Assembly: GCA_964609855.1 (NCBI GenBank)
Contig: CAZSTB010000005.1
Coordinates: 1,467-65,466 of the forward strand
DNA: 64,000 bases
Source of the DNA: an uncultured Bdellovibrionales bacterium
GTDB taxonomy: Bacteria; Patescibacteriota; Minisyncoccia; Moranbacterales; GWC2-37-73
Direction of reading: 5' to 3'
Shown here: positions 18,585 through 42,885 of the stretch, in pieces
Layout of the letters: each line of letters begins with the position of its first letter
Position numbering within the stretch: position 1 is the first letter of the stretch
Notes under the pieces: generated by a model
What the model saw: the letters and a program-made list of their open reading frames with translations, nothing else
Databases searched by the model: none
Told to the model about the DNA's origin: nothing
Program-made: the position numbers and the translations under genes

Positions 18585-18657
18585 GCCACCTTAGCTCAGT
18601 TGGTAGAGCGGCGCACTCGTAACGCGCAGGCCATCGGTTCAATCCCGGTAGGTGGCT
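18585..18657 (+). tRNA. tRNA-Thr (anticodon CGT); CCA not encoded.
   Basis: Cloverleaf: acceptor GCCACCT/AGGTGGC, D-arm TAGCTCAGTTGGTAGAGC, anticodon loop CTCGTAA, T-loop TTCAATC. One A-C mismatch at the base of the anticodon stem. Confidence 0.75.
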
Positions 18658-28790: not shown

Positions 28791-28889
28791 TTATTTGCAT
28801 TTTGAATTTTTTTACGTTAGTATCAATATATATTTTAAAAAATGTTCTTTCGCAATGCGACTATAAATTCAAATCATAGGAGGTGTAGT

Positions 28890-29069
28890 ATGGATGATGG
28901 TAAGCGAATGACATACTGTGCAAGTTTGGGTATGATCGTGCTTTTAGTCGTAGTGATAACAGGGGTCCTGCTTTTTGTTAAGCCGGCAGAAAAAAAAGCA
29001 ACTGCTGGTACTGAGAATCAGAAAAACATGACCAAGACTAAGCTGTCTGAAAACGGCGCAAAGAAATGA
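28890..29069 (+). CDS. Small membrane protein (59 aa) with a strong SD.
   Basis: AGGAGG 8 nt before the ATG. Single TM helix. Terminator at 29088. Confidence 0.4.
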   Translation: MDDGKRMTYCASLGMIVLLVVVITGVLLFVKPAEKKATAGTENQKNMTKTKLSENGAKK

Positions 29070-29291: not shown

Positions 29292-30962
29292 ATGAATACC
29301 AAGAAAAAACTACAACTGAAATTCGCAGGCATCGTACTGCTGGCTGTTATGGTCGGGCTAATTGCATATCCTCAATCAGTTAAGCGTGTGCCATACTTGT
29401 ATGAAGCTTTAAATAAATTCAATGTAAAATTGGGATTGGATTTGCAAGGTGGTATTCACCTGGAATATAAAGCAGATGTTACGAATATAGAGCCATCGAA
29501 AATAAGTGAAGCCCTTCAAGGCGCACAAGATGTGATTGAAAGACGTGTAAATGCTTTTGGCGTAGGTGAGCCATTGGTGCAAACAGCAAAAAGTGGAGAT
29601 GATTGGCGGGTAATAGTGGAATTACCAGGAGTTAAAGATATTGAGCAAGCCAAGCAACAAATAAAAGAAACTCCTCTATTGGAATTTAAAGAGGAGGGTA
29701 TGGAGCCCCAAATCGCAGAAATGTTCGATTCTCAAAATGCACAAGCCAAAGAAAAAGCTGAGGGGTTACTAAGGGAAGTTAAGGCTGGGGGTGATTTTGA
29801 GCAACTAGCTAAGGAAAATAGTCAGGATTCTGGCTCGAAAGAAAAAGGTGGAGATTTGGACTTTGTTAAAAAAGGTGCATTTGTTCCTGAATTTGACAAG
29901 GTGCTTTTCGAGGAAAAACTGAAACCAGGAGAAGTTTATCCCGAATTGGTAGAATCGGATTTTGGTTGGCATATTATTAGATTGATGGAAACGAGAGGAG
30001 AAGGGGATGATCTCGAAGTCCGCGCCCAGCATATTCTATTGAGCAAACTGAATCTTGATCAATATCCGCAATTTAAATACAAAGCAACAGGGCTTACTGG
30101 AAAAAACCTAAAAAGTGCAAGTGTAGTTTTTCAGAGTCAAGGAATTGGAGAGCCGCAAATTTCTTTGAAATTCGATGATGAGGGTACAAAGCTTTTTGCC
30201 GACCTGACAAAGGCAAATCTTGGCAAAACAATTGCAATTTTATTGGACGGCGAAATTATCAGCGCACCGACTGTGCAATCTGAAATCACAAATGGTGAGG
30301 CTGTTATTACAGGGCAATTTACCGTACAAGAAGCAAAAGAACTAGCTAAAAGCCTGAATACGGGGGCACTTCCAGTTCCGCTTACGTTGGTTGGGCAACA
30401 AAGTATTGAAGCCACATTAGGCGCTGACTCATTGCGTACGAGTGTTATTGCTGGAGCAATCGGTCTTGGAGCGGTTATACTTTTTATGTTGATATTCTAT
30501 CGTTTCTTGGGTTTAGTCGCATCGTTGGCATTGCTCATCTACACTGCGCTGATGATTGCCATTTTTAAATTTACGGGAATCACACTTACGCTTTCTGGAA
30601 TTGCCGGTTTCGTGCTTTCTATTGGTATGGCCGTGGATGCGAATATCTTAATTTTTGAACGAACTAAAGAGGAAATCAGAAACGGAAGAACCATTGCTAA
30701 TTCACTTGACGAAGGATTTAAGCGGGCATGGACTTCCATTCGCGACGGTAACATCTCATCACTTCTAACTGCAGGTATCCTATATTTGATGGGCACGGGG
30801 TTTGTGAAAGGTTTTGCTGCCGCCCTGTTTATCGGAGTTGTAGTTTCAATGTTTACCGCAGTAGTAATTACTCGCACCATGCTTAAATTTATCATAAGTG
30901 ATTGGATTCATGGTCGCACTTGGATGGTTGGGGTTAGAAAATCCAAAATAAAGTCAGAATAA
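29292..30962 (+). CDS. secD: Protein translocase subunit SecD carrying a parvulin-type peptidyl-prolyl isomerase (PpiC) domain in the periplasmic P1-head position.
   Basis: SecD base (LGLDLQGGIHL, VIERRVNAFGVGEP) and C-terminal SecDF TM core. The internal segment GGDLDFVKKGAFVPEFDKVLFEEKLKPGEVYPELVESDFGWHIIRLMETRG matches the parvulin signature (GGDLGxxxxGxMVPEFE...FGWHII). Confidence 0.8.
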   Translation: MNTKKKLQLKFAGIVLLAVMVGLIAYPQSVKRVPYLYEALNKFNVKLGLDLQGGIHLEYKADVTNIEPSKISEALQGAQDVIERRVNAFGVGEPLVQTAKSGDDWRVIVELPGVKDIEQAKQQIKETPLLEFKEEGMEPQIAEMFDSQNAQAKEKAEGLLREVKAGGDFEQLAKENSQDSGSKEKGGDLDFVKKGAFVPEFDKVLFEEKLKPGEVYPELVESDFGWHIIRLMETRGEGDDLEVRAQHILLSKLNLDQYPQFKYKATGLTGKNLKSASVVFQSQGIGEPQISLKFDDEGTKLFADLTKANLGKTIAILLDGEIISAPTVQSEITNGEAVITGQFTVQEAKELAKSLNTGALPVPLTLVGQQSIEATLGADSLRTSVIAGAIGLGAVILFMLIFYRFLGLVASLALLIYTALMIAIFKFTGITLTLSGIAGFVLSIGMAVDANILIFERTKEEIRNGRTIANSLDEGFKRAWTSIRDGNISSLLTAGILYLMGTGFVKGFAAALFIGVVVSMFTAVVITRTMLKFIISDWIHGRTWMVGVRKSKIKSE

Positions 30963-31080
30963 TTTCGAATTTTTAATTTAGAATTTCGATTCAATTTTGA
31001 ATGACTAAATGTTTGAAACATCGGAACATTAATATTTTCATTCAAAATTGAAAATTGGAAATTCAAAAAATTTATCAACT

Positions 31081-31983
31081 ATGTATAACATTATTCCAAA
31101 AACTAAATACGCTTACATTTTCTCCATCGTCATTTCTCTGTTGAGCATCTTAAGTTTATTTGTATGGGGATTGAAGCCGGATATTGATTTCACTGGAGGA
31201 ACTCGCATGGGAATTAAGTTTGCAACTGAAGTTCCTGAAAAGCAAGAAATTTTTGATGCAGTTAAAGACCTTAATCTTACGAGTTTATCTGTTCAGGGTA
31301 GTGAAAATAATTCTGTATTCATGCGTTATGCTTCTGAGGAAGATAAGACTAATGAAGAAGTTTGGAAAACAATCAGTTCGAAATATCCAGACGCAACACA
31401 ATTAAGTGTTGATTTTATAAACTCTTCAGTATCAAAAGAACTGAAAACCAAGTCTCTTAATGCAATCGTGATTGCCATCATGTCGATCATGGCATATATC
31501 GCCTGGGCGTTCCGTAGGGTTTCCAAGCCGGTGCAATCCTGGAAATATGGCGCAGGTGCGGTTATTGCTTTGGCTCATGATATATTGATCACTGCCGGTG
31601 TGTTTTCTTTGCTTGGTCATTTTTACGGTATAGAAGTTGGAATTCCTTTTATTGCAGCACTTTTGACGATATTAGGTTTTTCCGTACACGATACGATTGT
31701 AGTATATGATAGAACTAGAGAAAATCTGCTGAGGACCTCTCATAAAGAACCATTTGCCGATGTTGTAAATCGCTCGCTCAATGAAACGCTAGTGCGTTCA
31801 ATCAATACATCTTTTACGGTGGTTATTACGCTGTTAGCTATCTACCTATTTGGGGGAGCGTCGATTAAATATTTTGCCTTGGCACTTTTGGTTGGTGTGA
31901 CTTTCGGAACATATTCATCAATTTTTATCGCCTCCGCCCTCTTGGTTACAAGTTACAATCTGACTGTGAAACATAGAAGTTAA
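31081..31983 (+). CDS. secF: Protein translocase subunit SecF.
   Basis: IDFTGGT motif, six TM segments. Follows secD. Confidence 0.85.
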   Translation: MYNIIPKTKYAYIFSIVISLLSILSLFVWGLKPDIDFTGGTRMGIKFATEVPEKQEIFDAVKDLNLTSLSVQGSENNSVFMRYASEEDKTNEEVWKTISSKYPDATQLSVDFINSSVSKELKTKSLNAIVIAIMSIMAYIAWAFRRVSKPVQSWKYGAGAVIALAHDILITAGVFSLLGHFYGIEVGIPFIAALLTILGFSVHDTIVVYDRTRENLLRTSHKEPFADVVNRSLNETLVRSINTSFTVVITLLAIYLFGGASIKYFALALLVGVTFGTYSSIFIASALLVTSYNLTVKHRS

Positions 31984-32353: not shown

Positions 32354-33136
32354 TTATGCCTGAATCTCATTGAGCTTCGGCTTATGCTTCTTGGCATACA
32401 TCTCAGCATCTGCTCTTGATAATGCTTCCATTATATCCTCATTAGGATTAAAAACGTGAATCCCCATGGTTATGGAAAGAAGAATTCTCATACTCTTGCA
32501 ATAGAAAGGGGTCTTGCTTAGATTTTCGTGGATTCGCTGACAAATTATGCTGACCTCATTGAGCGCTTCAATTTCGCTATCGGAATTGCTGATTTTCAAG
32601 GCTGCGCAAAATTCATCCCCACCATATCTGCAGAGATAATTTTCCGTATCCTCTCTTATTTCTTGTCGCATAATTTCGGCGCATGTGCATATTGCTGAAT
32701 CTCCGAACGCATGTCCATAAGAGTCATTAATATTTTTGAACTTGTCTATGTCCATGAAAACCAAAATGAGATAGGTCTGCTGTCCCTTTCGGATATCTCT
32801 CAGTACTTGTTTTTGCAGTCGGCGAAGGGATTCTTCCAAGTATAGGCGATTATGAAGTCCCGTTAGGGGATCGCGCATTGAATTTTCCAGATGCTTAAAA
32901 AGACTTTTGCCTCCCCTTGTCCAGCCGTAGGAAAAGAAGAATACTATAAGTGATGGTACGAGGAATAGGAAGTAGCTTTTAAATTCCGGTGCGTTAACTT
33001 CCAAAAATCCGTAAATATAGAGATTTGCAAAAGATGAAGCCAGTCCTGCGATAATTACGATAATCCATCGCTTATTGCTATTTAATTTAACTATCCACCA
33101 GTCGTAGAGTTTCTCTTCCGATTTGCTTAGATGCAT
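32354..33136 (-). CDS. Membrane-anchored GGDEF-domain diguanylate cyclase.
   Basis: RYGGDEF active-site motif. Two N-terminal TM helices. Confidence 0.8.
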   Translation of the reverse strand: MHLSKSEEKLYDWWIVKLNSNKRWIIVIIAGLASSFANLYIYGFLEVNAPEFKSYFLFLVPSLIVFFFSYGWTRGGKSLFKHLENSMRDPLTGLHNRLYLEESLRRLQKQVLRDIRKGQQTYLILVFMDIDKFKNINDSYGHAFGDSAICTCAEIMRQEIREDTENYLCRYGGDEFCAALKISNSDSEIEALNEVSIICQRIHENLSKTPFYCKSMRILLSITMGIHVFNPNEDIMEALSRADAEMYAKKHKPKLNEIQA

Positions 33137-40734: not shown

Positions 40735-42885
40735 ATGGCTAATAACGAAATCGCATTCTTTGCAAAAACAAATTTTAGAAATGAAGAAAGAGTTTTCGGA
40801 ATAAAAACTGACGACCGCACCCGGCACATGTACATCATTGGAAAGACCGGTATGGGTAAGACGAACTTGCTGGAAAATCTGGTAGTGCAAGATATTCGCA
40901 ATGGTCATGGAATTTGCTATATCGACCCGCACGGCGACACGGCTGAAAAACTTCTAAAAGCAGTACCGGCGAATCGTATCAATGATGTTATTTATTTGAA
41001 TCCGTCCGACCAAAATTTCCCTTTGGCATTTAATGTTATGGAATCTGTAGATCCTGATTATCGCCATTTGGTGGCGTCGGGCTTGATTGGCGTTTTCAAA
41101 AAAATCTGGGCCGATTCTTGGGGACCTCGCTTGGAATATATTTTACGTAATGCTATCTTAGCGCTTTTGGAATATCCTGGCAGTACTTTGCTTGGAGTTA
41201 CACGTATTTTGGTAGACAAGAAATATCGCGAGAAAGTCGTTGAAAAAGTTACCGATCCTGTAATCAGGCAATTTTGGGTTGATGAATTTCCAAAATGGAG
41301 CGACAAAGTTTTGCAGGAAGTGGTATCTCCGATTCAGAATAAGGTTGGACAATTCTTGTCCAGTTCTTTGATTAGAAACATTGTCGGTCAGACGCAATCT
41401 TCCTTTGATATTAGAAACGCGATGGATACTAGAAAGATTTTAATTCTAAATCTTTCAAAAGGAAGAATCGGTGAAGATAACAGTGCCTTGTTGGGCGCGA
41501 TGATGATCACTAAGATTCAGCTGGCCGCCATGGGACGTGTTGATATTCCTGAAGAAGATCGAAAGGATTTTTATCTGTATGTCGATGAGTTTCAAAACTT
41601 CGCGACGGAATCTTTTGCAAACATTTTGTCTGAAGCTCGAAAGTATCGTTTGAATCTTATTTTAGCGAATCAGTATATCACTCAGATCGACGAAAAAGTT
41701 CGCGACGCGATTTTTGGTAATGCCGGAACGATTATTTCATTTCGTGTGGGCGCTACGGATGCGGAATTTTTGGAAAAAGAATTCGCACCAGTTTTTGTGC
41801 AGAACGATATTGTGAACCTTCCGAAATATAATGTATATCTGAAACTCATGATTGATGGTATTGCGGGCGACGCTTTTTCGGCAAAAGTTTTGCCTCCGGT
41901 GTACATTGGCGACACCATTGATAATGAGGAAAAAATTATTGCGGCTTCACGTGAGCGTTATGCTTCAAGCAAGGAAGAAGTTGAAGACAAGATTTCTCGT
42001 TGGGCAGGTATTATGCCGGCACAAGGATTTCAGACTGTGAACAAGGGTCCGATGGCAGGAGCTACTACCTATCCGAATCCTGCAGCCCGAACGGCGCAAA
42101 ATTATACCCAAAGTCAGCAATTTCAGCCTGCACAAAGCGGTTCGCAAAATTCTGCAAATCAAGTGCAGAACAACTCTCCGCAACCTCAAGCTCCCAAATT
42201 CGAGCCTCAGCGACCCCAAGTGGCTCCACCTGAGCTGCCAAAGGAGACGCGGCTGCAATTTACAGCTCCTTTGCCACCTGTAGCCCCTCAGCAGCCCCAT
42301 AGCTCGATTGAACCTCAGAAAGTTATACAAGCGCAGCCCCAATTCCAGTCAGCTCCCGAATTCGACGATTTAGGAGAATATAATCAACCGGAACCTCCTA
42401 AGCCTGTCTTTGAAGCGGTTTGCGATATGTGCGGCGAAAACATTCAAGTTCCATTTCAGCCGGATGGAAAACGCCCAACTTTTTGCAAGGATTGTCTCAA
42501 GGATTATCAGCGAATGACGGCAAAGGAGAAATTAAACCAGGAAAGAAAGATGCAGCGCGAGCAGGAGGACTCTCGTCAGCAAGCTGTTCCTTTTCAGCCG
42601 CCAAGAATGTCACAGCCAACTCCGAGTTATCCGCCAACGCATGGGATGCAACAACCACAGTATGCCGCACCTTCAAGATCACAGCGAGAGCAACCTAGAA
42701 CATCTACCCCAACCGAAAGACGTGTTGAACCGAAATCTTACGCTCCGCAAGAAGCTCCAATGTCACTTTCTCAAATGTCTCACATTGCACCTAAGAAATT
42801 TAAGTCGCAACGTCAGCGTCCGAATGTGAATTTGGATGAAGTGAGAAATTTGATCAATCAAACGCGCAGTGGCGAAGAAAAATAA
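40735..42885 (+). CDS. TraD/TraG/VirD4-family (type IV coupling protein-like) P-loop ATPase. Soluble form with a Q/P-rich low-complexity linker and a C-terminal CxxC...CxxC zinc ribbon.
   Basis: Walker A YIIGKTGMGKT, Walker B LYVDEFQNF. The C-terminus CDMCGENIQVPFQPDGKRPTFCKDC is a zinc ribbon. Confidence 0.5.
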   Translation: MANNEIAFFAKTNFRNEERVFGIKTDDRTRHMYIIGKTGMGKTNLLENLVVQDIRNGHGICYIDPHGDTAEKLLKAVPANRINDVIYLNPSDQNFPLAFNVMESVDPDYRHLVASGLIGVFKKIWADSWGPRLEYILRNAILALLEYPGSTLLGVTRILVDKKYREKVVEKVTDPVIRQFWVDEFPKWSDKVLQEVVSPIQNKVGQFLSSSLIRNIVGQTQSSFDIRNAMDTRKILILNLSKGRIGEDNSALLGAMMITKIQLAAMGRVDIPEEDRKDFYLYVDEFQNFATESFANILSEARKYRLNLILANQYITQIDEKVRDAIFGNAGTIISFRVGATDAEFLEKEFAPVFVQNDIVNLPKYNVYLKLMIDGIAGDAFSAKVLPPVYIGDTIDNEEKIIAASRERYASSKEEVEDKISRWAGIMPAQGFQTVNKGPMAGATTYPNPAARTAQNYTQSQQFQPAQSGSQNSANQVQNNSPQPQAPKFEPQRPQVAPPELPKETRLQFTAPLPPVAPQQPHSSIEPQKVIQAQPQFQSAPEFDDLGEYNQPEPPKPVFEAVCDMCGENIQVPFQPDGKRPTFCKDCLKDYQRMTAKEKLNQERKMQREQEDSRQQAVPFQPPRMSQPTPSYPPTHGMQQPQYAAPSRSQREQPRTSTPTERRVEPKSYAPQEAPMSLSQMSHIAPKKFKSQRQRPNVNLDEVRNLINQTRSGEEK

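What the first reader, a model, noticed from the sequence alone, without database searches (positions are those of the whole stretch)
29292..30962. SecD with an embedded parvulin-type PPIase domain
Between the conserved SecD P1-base (ending ...PLLEFKEEG) and the membrane core, the periplasmic head position is occupied by a PpiC/parvulin-like domain (GGDLDFVKKGAFVPEFDKVLFEEKLKPGEVYPELVESDFGWHIIRLMETRG). This would be a translocon-tethered foldase: SecDF pulls substrates out of SecYEG, and a fused prolyl isomerase would act at the exit site. Unusual domain architecture.
Basis: partly seen in the sequence, partly recalled or inferred. Interest (0 to 1): 0.65.

Follow-up and report, generated by a model that had tools for sequence, protein, structure and literature searches.

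The report
SecD with inserted, permuted parvulin domain
The SecD subunit of the protein-export machine in this ultra-small (Moranbacteria-type, Patescibacteria) bacterium carries a prolyl-isomerase (parvulin) domain spliced into its outward-facing arm; many related lineages share this layout, which would put a folding helper where exported proteins leave the membrane channel.

Summary
The ORF 29292-30962 (+) is a full SecD (TIGR01129 391 bits, cutoff 244), followed by SecF. It contains a strong parvulin hit (Rotamase_3, E 2e-24, aa 146-234). The interpretation needs correcting: the P1 head is not replaced. It is intact (PF22599, E 9e-34, aa 263-362), and the parvulin is an extra module of about 110 aa at the base-to-head junction. 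The parvulin appears circularly permuted. Its first strand, carrying the catalytic His (EVRAQH247ILL), lies after the last strand (GWH227II). Moving it to the front restores end-to-end alignment to canonical parvulins in 74 of 74 relatives. AlphaFold models the strand inside the domain with pLDDT about 97. The catalytic set is conserved: D179, S/T222, H227, H247. The architecture is not an artefact. It occurs in 38 species-level genomes and more than 120 protein clusters of Moranbacteria. Forms with one, two or three units, some fused as SecDF, occur in Peregrinibacteria, Gracilibacteria and Peribacterales. Other Patescibacteria, such as Azambacteria, lack it. The most likely function is a translocon-tethered foldase or holdase, a covalent counterpart of PrsA, PpiD and the Mycoplasma SecDF dome complex. 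Activity is untested. I found no paper describing it. Verdict: a new variant of a known kind, of moderate interest.

The parts
29292..30962 (+). secD gene (556 aa plus stop) with embedded parvulin
   Evidence: ORF. TIGR01129 scores 391.5 bits, above the 244.4 cutoff. The best PDB matches are SecDF 3aqp/5yhf (E 1e-83) and, by Foldseek, 5yhf/5xan/3aqp.
29322..29372 (+). TM1 (about aa 11-27), preceded by a Lys-rich cytoplasmic N-terminus
   Evidence: The sequence is MNTKKKLQLKFAGIVLLAVMVGLIAY. AF2 models a helix over aa 3-25. The topology is inferred from the positive-inside rule and SecD homology.
29412..29693 (+). P1 base, N-terminal part (aa 41-134), ending in the strand PLLEFKEE
   Evidence: Pfam Sec_GG aa 46-62 and SecD_1st aa 76-134. 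The region aligns to T. thermophilus SecDF 32-116.
29706..29999 (+). Parvulin core lacking its own first strand (aa 139-236): alpha1-alpha3, beta2, alpha4, beta3, beta4. It contains S177-x-D179, G187-D-L189, S222 and H227.
   Evidence: Rotamase_3 E 2.1e-24, matching profile positions 30-115 of 116. The domain-only AF2 model has pLDDT 92-98 here. Foldseek matches PrsA 5htf (84 columns, rmsd 1.7) and CsPin 2rqs (76 columns, rmsd 1.9).
30009..30047 (+). Displaced parvulin beta1 strand (aa 240-252, DLEVRAQH247ILLSK), following beta4 as a hairpin
   Evidence: The permuted construct matches Rotamase profile positions 1-96 of 97 and SurA P2 residues 264-364 end to end. The gain is +9.2 bits in 74/74 relatives, and a shuffled control gives none. 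AF2 models a strand at aa 242-251 with pLDDT about 97. H247 is kept in 73/74 and I248 in 74/74.
30078..30377 (+). P1 head subdomain (aa 263-362), intact
   Evidence: PF22599 SecDF_P1_head E 8.6e-34, profile positions 16-114 of 114. The region aligns to T. thermophilus SecDF 160-260.
30399..30911 (+). TM2-TM6 core (aa 370-540) with the TM4 Asp D449
   Evidence: SecD_SecF_C. D449 aligns with T. thermophilus SecDF D340 and is invariant in 74/74.
31048..31983 (+). secF, immediately downstream. The ORF opens at TTG 31048; the family match starts at Met12, ATG 31081.
   Evidence: TIGR00966 scores 277 bits, above the 160 cutoff, and SecD_SecF_C has E 1.7e-56. A SecF-like hit also lies downstream of secD in related loci.

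Best explanation
This is a functional SecD of a Moranbacteria-type Patescibacterium. It works with the adjacent SecF as the proton-driven accessory motor of the SecYEG translocon. A module of about 110 aa is inserted in its extracytoplasmic P1 domain, at the junction where the chain leaves the P1 base and enters the mobile P1 head. The module is a parvulin-type peptidyl-prolyl isomerase domain in circularly permuted order: the core (alpha1 to beta4) comes first, and the beta1 strand follows beta4 as a hairpin and completes the sheet. As a result, both ends of the insert lie close together, next to the SecD hinge. The catalytic set (S177-x-D179, S/T222, H227 on beta4, H247 on the displaced beta1) and the proline-pocket residues (L189, F197, F201) are conserved. 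The most likely mechanism is therefore that the domain binds, and isomerises prolines in, unfolded polypeptides as the P1 head captures them at the SecYEG exit. That would make it a covalently tethered counterpart of PrsA or PpiD. What is shown: the architecture, the outside location (by SecD topology), the permuted order at sequence level, the confident AF2 fold, residue conservation and the lineage distribution. What is inferred: catalytic activity, action on Sec substrates, and any coupling to head movement.
For: Architecture. Permutation, first line of evidence: in natural order, the hit starts at Rotamase_3 profile position 30 and Rotamase position 12, and the SecD flank PLLEFKEE is not aligned. 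Moving aa 237-254 to the front extends coverage to positions 14 and 1 and raises the score from 90.9 to 98.6 bits. The rearranged sequence aligns end to end with SurA P2 264-364 (EVRAQHILLS against EVHARHILLK), E 2e-15, and with S. aureus PrsA parvulin 9-108. Permutation, second line: against an independent profile built from 41 free parvulins, the rearrangement gains a mean of 9.2 bits in 74/74 relatives. A shuffled strand or the SecD N-flank gives no gain. Structure: in the full AF2 model the parvulin region is the most confident part (pLDDT 85-93). The domain-only model has pLDDT 89.7 and pTM 0.80, with strand 242-251 at about 97, while PLLEFKEE is not modelled as a strand. Foldseek returns only parvulin PPIases as significant hits. 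Conservation: D179 74/74, S/T222 74/74, H227 67/74, H247 73/74. The insert shows 65% mean identity to the query, against 75-83% for the SecD parts and 48% for the linker. Distribution. Precedent for parvulin foldases working at SecDF/SecYEG: PpiD-YfgM (PMC9643414); SurA-SEC (PMC9987972); and PrsA-like PPIC lipoproteins crosslinked to SecD that form a dome over SecDF-SecYEG, with substrate density touching the active PPIC domain in Mycoplasma pneumoniae (10.1101/2024.09.05.611430; 10.1101/2025.04.25.650208).
Against: No activity data exist. Parvulin domains in SurA P1 and PpiD are known to be inactive (my own knowledge). Six of 74 close relatives have Glu at position 227, together with an altered substrate loop. 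More distant single-unit forms (P0129, P0150, P0173) have lost both His residues, and the first unit of two-unit forms is degenerate. Binding or a structural role, rather than catalysis, may therefore be the property common to all forms. The full-length model has pTM of only 0.44, so the position of the parvulin relative to the head and SecY is unknown. I could not inspect model coordinates, so the pairing of strand 242-251 with beta2 and beta4 is inferred from the secondary-structure order and confidence, not measured. A published survey reports PrsA annotations in members of all CPR classes (PMC9166423), so the fusion need not be the only foldase.
Confidence: 0.6

Rival explanations
1. The inserted parvulin is a non-catalytic holdase or client-docking module, or merely a structural spacer that enlarges P1. 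It would resemble the inactive parvulin domains of PpiD and SurA P1. The conserved 'catalytic' residues would be kept for fold stability or peptide binding.
For: The His residues are lost in several lineages that keep the domain: P0129, P0150 and P0173, and 6/74 close relatives have H227E. Degenerate first units are retained in two-unit forms. Insert sizes cluster at about 135, 250 and 345 aa or more, that is in steps of roughly 100-115 aa, which suggests modular surface expansion.
Against: In this protein and in 67/74 relatives the full set D179, S/T222, H227 and H247 is intact, as are the GDL motif and the pocket residues. The closest sequence relative by E-value is SurA P2 (E 2e-15), which is the catalytically active SurA domain (my own knowledge).
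Confidence: 0.25
2. The parvulin is not permuted. Its sheet is completed by the SecD strand PLLEFKEE, or stays incomplete. The EVRAQHILL strand would be a relic of a lost second parvulin unit that now serves as a linker or hinge strand towards the head.
For: In multi-unit SecDs the His-bearing strand sits directly in front of a strong unit that reads canonically (hmm 1-106). The unit before it lacks beta1, exactly like the single unit here. The single-unit form could therefore be a two-unit form whose second core was deleted.
Against: PLLEFKEE belongs to the SecD_1st profile (positions up to 57 of 60). It gives no gain against a canonical parvulin profile (secdN construct) and is not modelled as a strand in the domain-only model (pLDDT 53-79). 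The post-beta4 strand is modelled at pLDDT about 97, directly after beta4. H247 is kept in 73/74 and I248 in 74/74, which is not expected of a relic linker.
Confidence: 0.12
3. One reading: the parvulin replaces the P1 head, so SecD has swapped its substrate-binding head for an isomerase.
For: None beyond the position of the parvulin after the base strand.
Against: The P1 head is present and strongly conserved (PF22599 E 8.6e-34, aa 263-362). It aligns to T. thermophilus SecDF 160-260. It shows 75% mean identity to the query across relatives.
Confidence: 0.02
4. The architecture is an assembly or gene-calling artefact: a chimeric contig, or a fused call of a secD fragment with a neighbouring ppiC gene.
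For: None.
Against: The reading frame is single and uninterrupted. The same architecture appears in 38 independent species-level genomes and in more than 120 protein clusters from NCBI, JGI, ENA and Logan assemblies. The SecD sequence continues on both sides of the insert.
Confidence: 0.01

Closest known systems
Canonical SecD/SecDF (Thermus thermophilus 3AQP/5YHF; Deinococcus radiodurans 5XAN)
   Same: Same order of TM1, P1 base, P1 head and TM2-6. The TM4 Asp is conserved (D449 = T. thermophilus D340). SecF is the adjacent partner. Top hits by sequence (E 1e-83) and by Foldseek (E 2e-23).
   Different: About 134 aa lie between the last base strand and the aligned head, against 43 aa in T. 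thermophilus (117-159). Patescibacterial SecDs without a parvulin have a median of 29 aa there. The extra residues form a parvulin domain.
SurA parvulin domain P2 (E. coli, 1M5Y) and tandem-parvulin SurA-like proteins
   Same: Closest free relative of the insert (E 2e-15). It shares the motifs SQD(P/S)GS, GGDL, FGWH(I/L)I and EV(H/R)A(R/Q)HILL. In tandem parvulins, beta4 of one domain is followed after a short linker by beta1 of the next. An example is GYHIIQLIERRGDQVNVRHILLKPK in L046, the same local order as in the SecD insert.
   Different: SurA is a soluble periplasmic chaperone with an N/C chaperone module and canonical domain order. Here a single core plus the 'next' beta1 is embedded in a membrane motor.
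PrsA lipoprotein foldase of monoderm bacteria (B. subtilis 4WO7, B. anthracis 6VJ4, Listeria 5HTF)
   Same: An extracytoplasmic, membrane-anchored parvulin that acts on Sec-exported proteins. Its parvulin is itself an inserted domain. The structural match to the core is 84 columns at rmsd 1.7.
   Different: This protein has no lipobox and no NC chaperone domain. NCBIfam PrsA models score 47-60 bits against cutoffs of 343-361. The anchor is SecD itself, and the strand order is permuted.
PpiD-YfgM at SecYEG (E. coli) and the Mycoplasma pneumoniae dome complex (Mdp444/436/489 on SecDF-SecYEG)
   Same: Parvulin-containing factors are stationed at the trans side of the Sec translocon. In Mycoplasma they crosslink to SecD, and an active PPIC domain contacts emerging substrate (PMC9643414; 10.1101/2024.09.05.611430; 10.1101/2025.04.25.650208).
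   Different: Those are separate proteins that associate non-covalently. Here the parvulin is part of the SecD polypeptide, at one copy per motor, and sits at the hinge of the moving P1 head.

Membership tests
SecD (protein translocase subunit, RND superfamily) | Full-length match to the curated SecD model above its cutoff | tested here: met
   TIGR01129 scores 391.5 bits against a cutoff of 244.4, covering aa 47-531.
SecD (protein translocase subunit, RND superfamily) | P1 base, P1 head and the six-TM core, in order | tested here: met
   SecD_1st 76-134, SecDF_P1_head 263-362 and SecD_SecF_C 370-534. AF2 models TM helices at 378-537. Foldseek top hits are 5yhf, 5xan and 3aqp.
SecD (protein translocase subunit, RND superfamily) | Conserved TM4 aspartate of the proton pathway (T. 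thermophilus D340) | tested here: met
   D449 aligns with T. thermophilus D340 and is invariant in 74/74. Its role is taken from the published SecDF work (my own knowledge).
SecD (protein translocase subunit, RND superfamily) | SecF encoded as partner | tested here: met
   ORF 31048-31983 matches TIGR00966 at 277 bits against a cutoff of 160.
SecD (protein translocase subunit, RND superfamily) | PMF-dependent stimulation of protein export | not testable with these tools
   This needs genetics or biochemistry.
Parvulin (PpiC-type) PPIase domain | Significant match to the rotamase profiles | tested here: met
   Rotamase_3 86.7 bits (cutoff 22.5), Rotamase 77.5 bits (cutoff 21.7) and Rotamase_2 29.1 bits (cutoff 27).
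Parvulin (PpiC-type) PPIase domain | Parvulin fold: a four-stranded sheet with four helices | tested here: met
   The domain-only AF2 model has pLDDT 89.7 and pTM 0.80. The only significant Foldseek hits are parvulin PPIases: 8hm3/8hm4 and 6vj4 at E 4e-8 to 3e-4, with 5htf and 2rqs at rmsd 1.7-1.9.
Parvulin (PpiC-type) PPIase domain | Canonical order beta1-alpha1-alpha2-alpha3-beta2-alpha4-beta3-beta4 | tested here: not met
   Profile matches start after beta1. The beta1-like strand lies after beta4. The topology is therefore a circular permutation of the family fold.
Parvulin (PpiC-type) PPIase domain | Catalytic and H-bond network residues (Pin1 H59, C113 or Asp, T152, H157) and the proline pocket | tested here: met
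   The residues are H247, D179, S222 (S/T in 74/74), H227, L189, F197 and F201. The mapping to Pin1 numbering uses motif alignment and my own knowledge.
Parvulin (PpiC-type) PPIase domain | Measured cis-trans isomerase activity | not testable with these tools
   This needs an enzyme assay.
PrsA foldase lipoprotein | Full-length match including the NC chaperone domain, plus a lipoprotein signal | tested here: not met
   PrsA NCBIfam models score 47-60 bits against cutoffs of 343-361, and only over the parvulin region. The N-terminus is the SecD TM1, not a lipobox.
SurA / PpiD chaperones | SurA-type N-terminal chaperone module flanking the parvulin(s) | tested here: not met
   SurA NF008038 scores 51 bits against a cutoff of 394, over the parvulin only. 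No SurA_N or Rotamase-flanking chaperone domain appears in Pfam.

The most novel reading that the evidence does not exclude
The parvulin sits on the hinge of the proton-driven P1 head and is mechanically coupled to the head's swing. Client binding, prolyl isomerisation and release would then be cycled by the proton-motive force. That would be an energy-coupled foldase or holdase on the ATP-free side of the membrane. The circular permutation would have been selected because it places both chain ends at the hinge. The arrays of one to three or more units in other Patescibacteria would be tunable versions of the same device, possibly replacing free PrsA/PpiD-type factors in reduced genomes.
Probability: 0.12. 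Interest if true: 0.85.

Novelty: new variant of a known kind. Interest (0 to 1): 0.55.

Why it matters
SecDF and parvulin foldases (PrsA, PpiD, SurA, the Mycoplasma dome proteins) are known to meet at the exit of the Sec channel, but only as separate proteins. A natural covalent fusion, conserved across several classes of Patescibacteria, is Rosetta-stone-type evidence that the two activities belong together. It also fixes the foldase at one copy per motor, at a defined position next to the substrate-binding head. That offers a compact single-polypeptide system for structural and biochemical study of how translocation hands over to folding. It also appears to be a natural circular permutation of the parvulin fold: a full-text search for 'parvulin' plus 'circular permutation' returned nothing. 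Finally, it adds a lineage-variable envelope trait (0, 1, 2 or 3+ units) to a group of organisms whose cell-surface biology is largely unknown.

Tried and rejected
1. Head replacement is rejected, because the head is present.
2. An assembly or gene-call artefact is rejected.
3. The Foldseek search of the full-length model listed only SecDF and RND pumps in its top 50, so it gave no information on the insert. A domain-only model was needed.
5. Model coordinates are not exposed, so strand pairing could not be measured.
6. The three 'Bacteroidetes' loci whose match seemed to extend into SecD-like flanks (L046, L052, L065) turned out to be SurA-like tandem parvulins, not SecD fusions.
7. The scan of the 64 kb window found no second parvulin.
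8. Literature searches found no description of the fusion or of a permuted parvulin. The term sets were SecD+parvulin, SecDF+PpiC, parvulin+'circular permutation', and SecD/PPIase/Patescibacteria. The library does not hold most subscription-journal papers, so absence is not proof.
9. Cluster-name look-ups gave few organism names, so the taxonomy of several variants remains unknown.
10. Whether Moranbacteria lack a free PrsA could not be tested. One survey reports PrsA annotations in all CPR classes.
Full report
**1. The observation**

The + strand ORF 29256/29292-30962 encodes a 556-aa protein counted from the ATG at 29292. That start agrees with the N-termini of homologues. Pfam gives, in order:
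- Sec_GG (weak).
- SecD_1st, aa 76-134, E 7e-17.
- Rotamase_3, aa 146-234, E 2.1e-24, with Rotamase at E 1.6e-21 and Rotamase_2.
- SecDF_P1_head, aa 263-362, E 8.6e-34.
- SecD_SecF_C, aa 370-534.

NCBIfam's SecD equivalog-domain model TIGR01129 scores 391.5 bits against a cutoff of 244.4. The next ORF (31048-31983) is SecF, with TIGR00966 at 277 bits against a cutoff of 160.

**2. Where the parvulin sits**

It does not, because the P1 head is intact. Against T. thermophilus SecDF, query aa 44-133 align to residues 32-116 and query aa 268-546 align to residues 160-438. So 134 aa lie where Thermus has 43.

I ran a local domain survey of 150 cluster representatives. Patescibacterial SecDs without a parvulin have a median of 29 aa between the end of the base and the start of the head. 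The parvulin is therefore an added module of about 110 aa at the base-to-head junction, the region that acts as the hinge of the mobile head in the published SecDF structures (my own knowledge of that literature). The TM4 aspartate (D449 = T. thermophilus D340) is invariant, so the motor part looks functional. TM1 (aa 11-27), preceded by a Lys-rich N-terminus, places P1 outside the cytoplasm, as in every SecD (inference from topology rules and homology).

**3. The parvulin is circularly permuted**

- *Natural order.* The profile matches begin only at Rotamase_3 position 30 of 116 and Rotamase position 12 of 97. The first strand, which carries one of the two conserved His residues, is missing at the N-terminal side.
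- *The displaced strand.* Directly after the last strand (GWH227IIRLMETRG) comes DLEVRAQH247ILLSK, which looks like a parvulin beta1.
- *Rearranged construct.* Placing aa 237-254 in front of aa 141-236 extends coverage to Rotamase_3 position 14 and Rotamase position 1, and raises the Rotamase_3 score from 90.9 to 98.6 bits. The rearranged sequence aligns without a break to SurA P2 residues 264-364 (EVRAQHILLS against EVHARHILLK, E 2e-15) and to the S. aureus PrsA parvulin 9-108.
- *Family-wide test.* I built an independent profile from 41 free parvulins recovered in the genome scan. The rearrangement gains a mean of 9.2 bits in 74 of 74 relatives, and the profile start moves from position 18 to 2. 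A shuffled strand gives no gain (lower in 73/74), and neither does the SecD flank PLLEFKEE.
- *Structure prediction.* AlphaFold2 on the full protein gives its highest confidence to the parvulin region (pLDDT 85-93, against 66-83 for the SecD periplasmic parts). A domain-only model (aa 123-265) has pLDDT 89.7 and pTM 0.80. Its element order is alpha1 (139-164), alpha2, alpha3, beta2 (188-193), alpha4, beta3, beta4 (225-235), then strand 242-251 at pLDDT about 97. PLLEFKEE is not modelled as a strand.
- *Fold search.* Foldseek against the PDB returns only parvulin PPIases as significant hits: B. fragilis PPIase 8hm3/8hm4 (E 4e-8 to 8e-7) and PrsA 6vj4 (E 3e-4). Core superpositions have rmsd 1.7-1.9 Å on PrsA 5htf and CsPin 2rqs.
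- *Caveat.* I could not read coordinates. The statement that the displaced strand fills the beta1 slot rests on sequence homology, on its hairpin position after beta4 (in parvulins beta1 and beta4 are neighbours carrying the two His residues, my own knowledge), and on model confidence.

**4. Conservation and likely competence**

Counts in 74 relatives at 66-84% identity:

| Residue | Conservation |
|---|---|
| D179 (the Cys113/Asp position) | 74/74 |
| S/T222 | 74/74 |
| H227 | 67/74 (six Glu, one Phe) |
| H247 | 73/74 |
| G187-D188-L189 | invariant |
| F201 | 73/74 |

Mean identity to the query is 65% for the parvulin core. It is 75-77% for the base and head, 83% for the TM core and 48% for the linker. 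The insert is thus under clear purifying selection.

**5. Distribution**

- All 120 best homologue clusters carry the Rotamase + SecD Pfam set. Those with names are Candidatus Moranbacteria/Moraniibacteriota or 'Patescibacteria group'.
- A scan of one genome per GTDB species found 38 species whose locus encodes the full architecture (L001-L038). The remaining hits were free SurA/PrsA-like parvulins.
- An exhaustive HMMER search of 1.84 billion cluster representatives with aa 60-365 returned 232 representatives at E up to 1e-30.
- Among the best 150 representatives, 72 complete proteins carry parvulin units, 55 do not, and the rest are fragments.
- Base-to-head spacings cluster at about 135, 250, 345 and 400 or more aa. 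That corresponds to one, two, three or more units.
- Two-unit SecDF fusions of 1000-1100 aa belong to Candidatus Peregrinibacteria, Gracilibacteria or 'Patescibacteria group'.
- A 1119-aa form is from Peribacterales.
- A two-unit form sits next to secA and secF in GCA_000397945.1, and its precomputed Pfam hits confirm two Rotamase domains.
- Patescibacteria without the insert include an Azambacteria cluster.

The insert is therefore a lineage-variable trait within Patescibacteria. It is neither a peculiarity of this genome nor an artefact.

**6. Relationship between the forms (partly unexplained)**

In multi-unit proteins the last strong unit reads canonically (profile 1-106). It is preceded by a beta1-less, usually degenerate unit (profile 13-18 to 104). 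The single-unit form here is a beta1-less but intact unit followed by an orphan beta1 (profile 1-17). Natural tandem parvulins show the same local order: beta4, short linker, then beta1 of the next domain. An example is GYHIIQLIERRGDQVNVRHILLKPK in L046.

This fits the classical duplication-and-truncation route to a circular permutation: a slice running from alpha1 of one unit to beta1 of the next. The direction of change (deletion of a second core, or duplication of a permuted unit) is not resolved. How unit 1 of the multi-unit forms completes its sheet is also unresolved. Some terminal strands of two-unit forms keep a His (YNVSHIFIP in P0126) and most do not.

**7. Mechanism**

*Best supported.* SecD-SecF works as usual, and the tethered parvulin binds and isomerises prolines in chains emerging from SecYEG, next to the client-binding head.

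*Precedents.*
- PpiD-YfgM at SecYEG (PMC9643414).
- SurA contacts with the Sec machinery (PMC9987972).
- PrsA in monoderms.
- The M. pneumoniae PrsA-like PPIC lipoproteins. They crosslink to SecD and form a dome over SecDF-SecYEG, and substrate density touches the active PPIC domain (10.1101/2024.09.05.611430; 10.1101/2025.04.25.650208).

*Against a purely catalytic reading.* Several lineages keep the domain but have lost the His residues, so holdase or docking activity may be the common denominator. The inter-domain geometry is uncertain (pTM 0.44). A survey reports PrsA annotations in all CPR classes, so replacement of PrsA is not established. I could not test this for Moranbacteria, and the window holds no second parvulin.

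**8. Novelty and verdict**

The parts are textbook families, and the idea of a foldase at the translocon is established. The databases already store the Pfam hits, but annotate these proteins simply as SecD. I found no paper describing a SecD-parvulin fusion or a permuted parvulin, though the searchable library is incomplete. I rate it a new variant of a known kind.

- The architecture is certain (about 0.97).
- The permutation is likely (about 0.8).
- The foldase or holdase role at the translocon is plausible but untested (about 0.6 for a catalytic foldase, with most of the remainder on a non-catalytic chaperone role).

Noticed in passing
Related proteins P0126, P0139, P0156, P0228 (655-705 aa); P0153, P0160, P0166, P0169 (about 1015-1100 aa); P0161, P0226, P0246 (780-1119 aa): Other Patescibacteria carry two, three or more parvulin-like units at the same SecD site, often in SecD-SecF fusions. 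Base-to-head spacings cluster at about 135, 250, 345 and 400 or more aa. The upstream unit is usually degenerate and lacks beta1, and the last unit reads canonically.
   Followed up: partly
Alignment A1/A2: relatives with ...GDLGFISKPSIYG..., GWEIIKF and VHVEHIL: A subclade of Moranbacteria-type SecDs (6 of 74) replaces the beta4 His (H227) with Glu and has a remodelled substrate loop, while keeping the His on the displaced beta1. Catalysis may be altered or lost there.
   Followed up: partly
L046 2518-3834 (+), also L052 and L065: A SurA-like periplasmic protein of marine Bacteroidota single-cell genomes has tandem parvulins joined by only about 5 residues (GYHIIQLIERRGDQVNVRHILLKPK). This is the same beta4-linker-beta1 arrangement as the SecD insert, and a possible model for the source of the permuted slice.
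   Followed up: partly
L002, L010, L011, L013, L015, L019, L022, L023 (titles 'uncultured Bdellovibrionales'); L037 ('uncultured Gammaproteobacteria'): These MAG records carry Moranbacteria-type SecD-parvulin genes at 49-81% identity to the window protein. Their organism labels look wrong.
   Followed up: no
window 32354-33136 (-): A 260-aa membrane-anchored GGDEF diguanylate cyclase (PF00990, E 3.5e-35) lies on the minus strand just downstream of secF, in a window where nearly all genes are on the plus strand.
   Followed up: no
window 40735-42885 (+): A 716-aa TrwB/TraG/VirD4-type coupling ATPase with a treble-clef zinc finger (PF10412, PF12696, PF23477) has no visible T4SS neighbours among the ORFs I scanned. 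This matches the report that VirD4-like genes are common and mostly orphan in Patescibacteria (PMC12102498).
   Followed up: partly
window 1-64000: GC skew is positive in every 2-kb bin (cumulative skew rises steadily to 4.9), and 32 of the 41 ORFs of at least 180 aa lie on the + strand. This is consistent with one replichore with strong gene-strand bias. GC is about 38%.
   Followed up: no
window 28842-29069 (+): A small 75-aa ORF with one hydrophobic segment lies directly upstream of secD and has no Pfam match. Bacterial secDF operons often carry yajC upstream, but this ORF was not identified as YajC.
   Followed up: partly
PMC9166423 (freshwater CPR ecogenomics): The paper reports PrsA in members of all CPR classes from automated annotation. 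Some of those calls could be parvulin hits inside SecD rather than free PrsA lipoproteins. I did not check this.
   Followed up: no
window 18585-18657 (+): This is the only Rfam hit in the window at gathering threshold: one tRNA gene.
   Followed up: no
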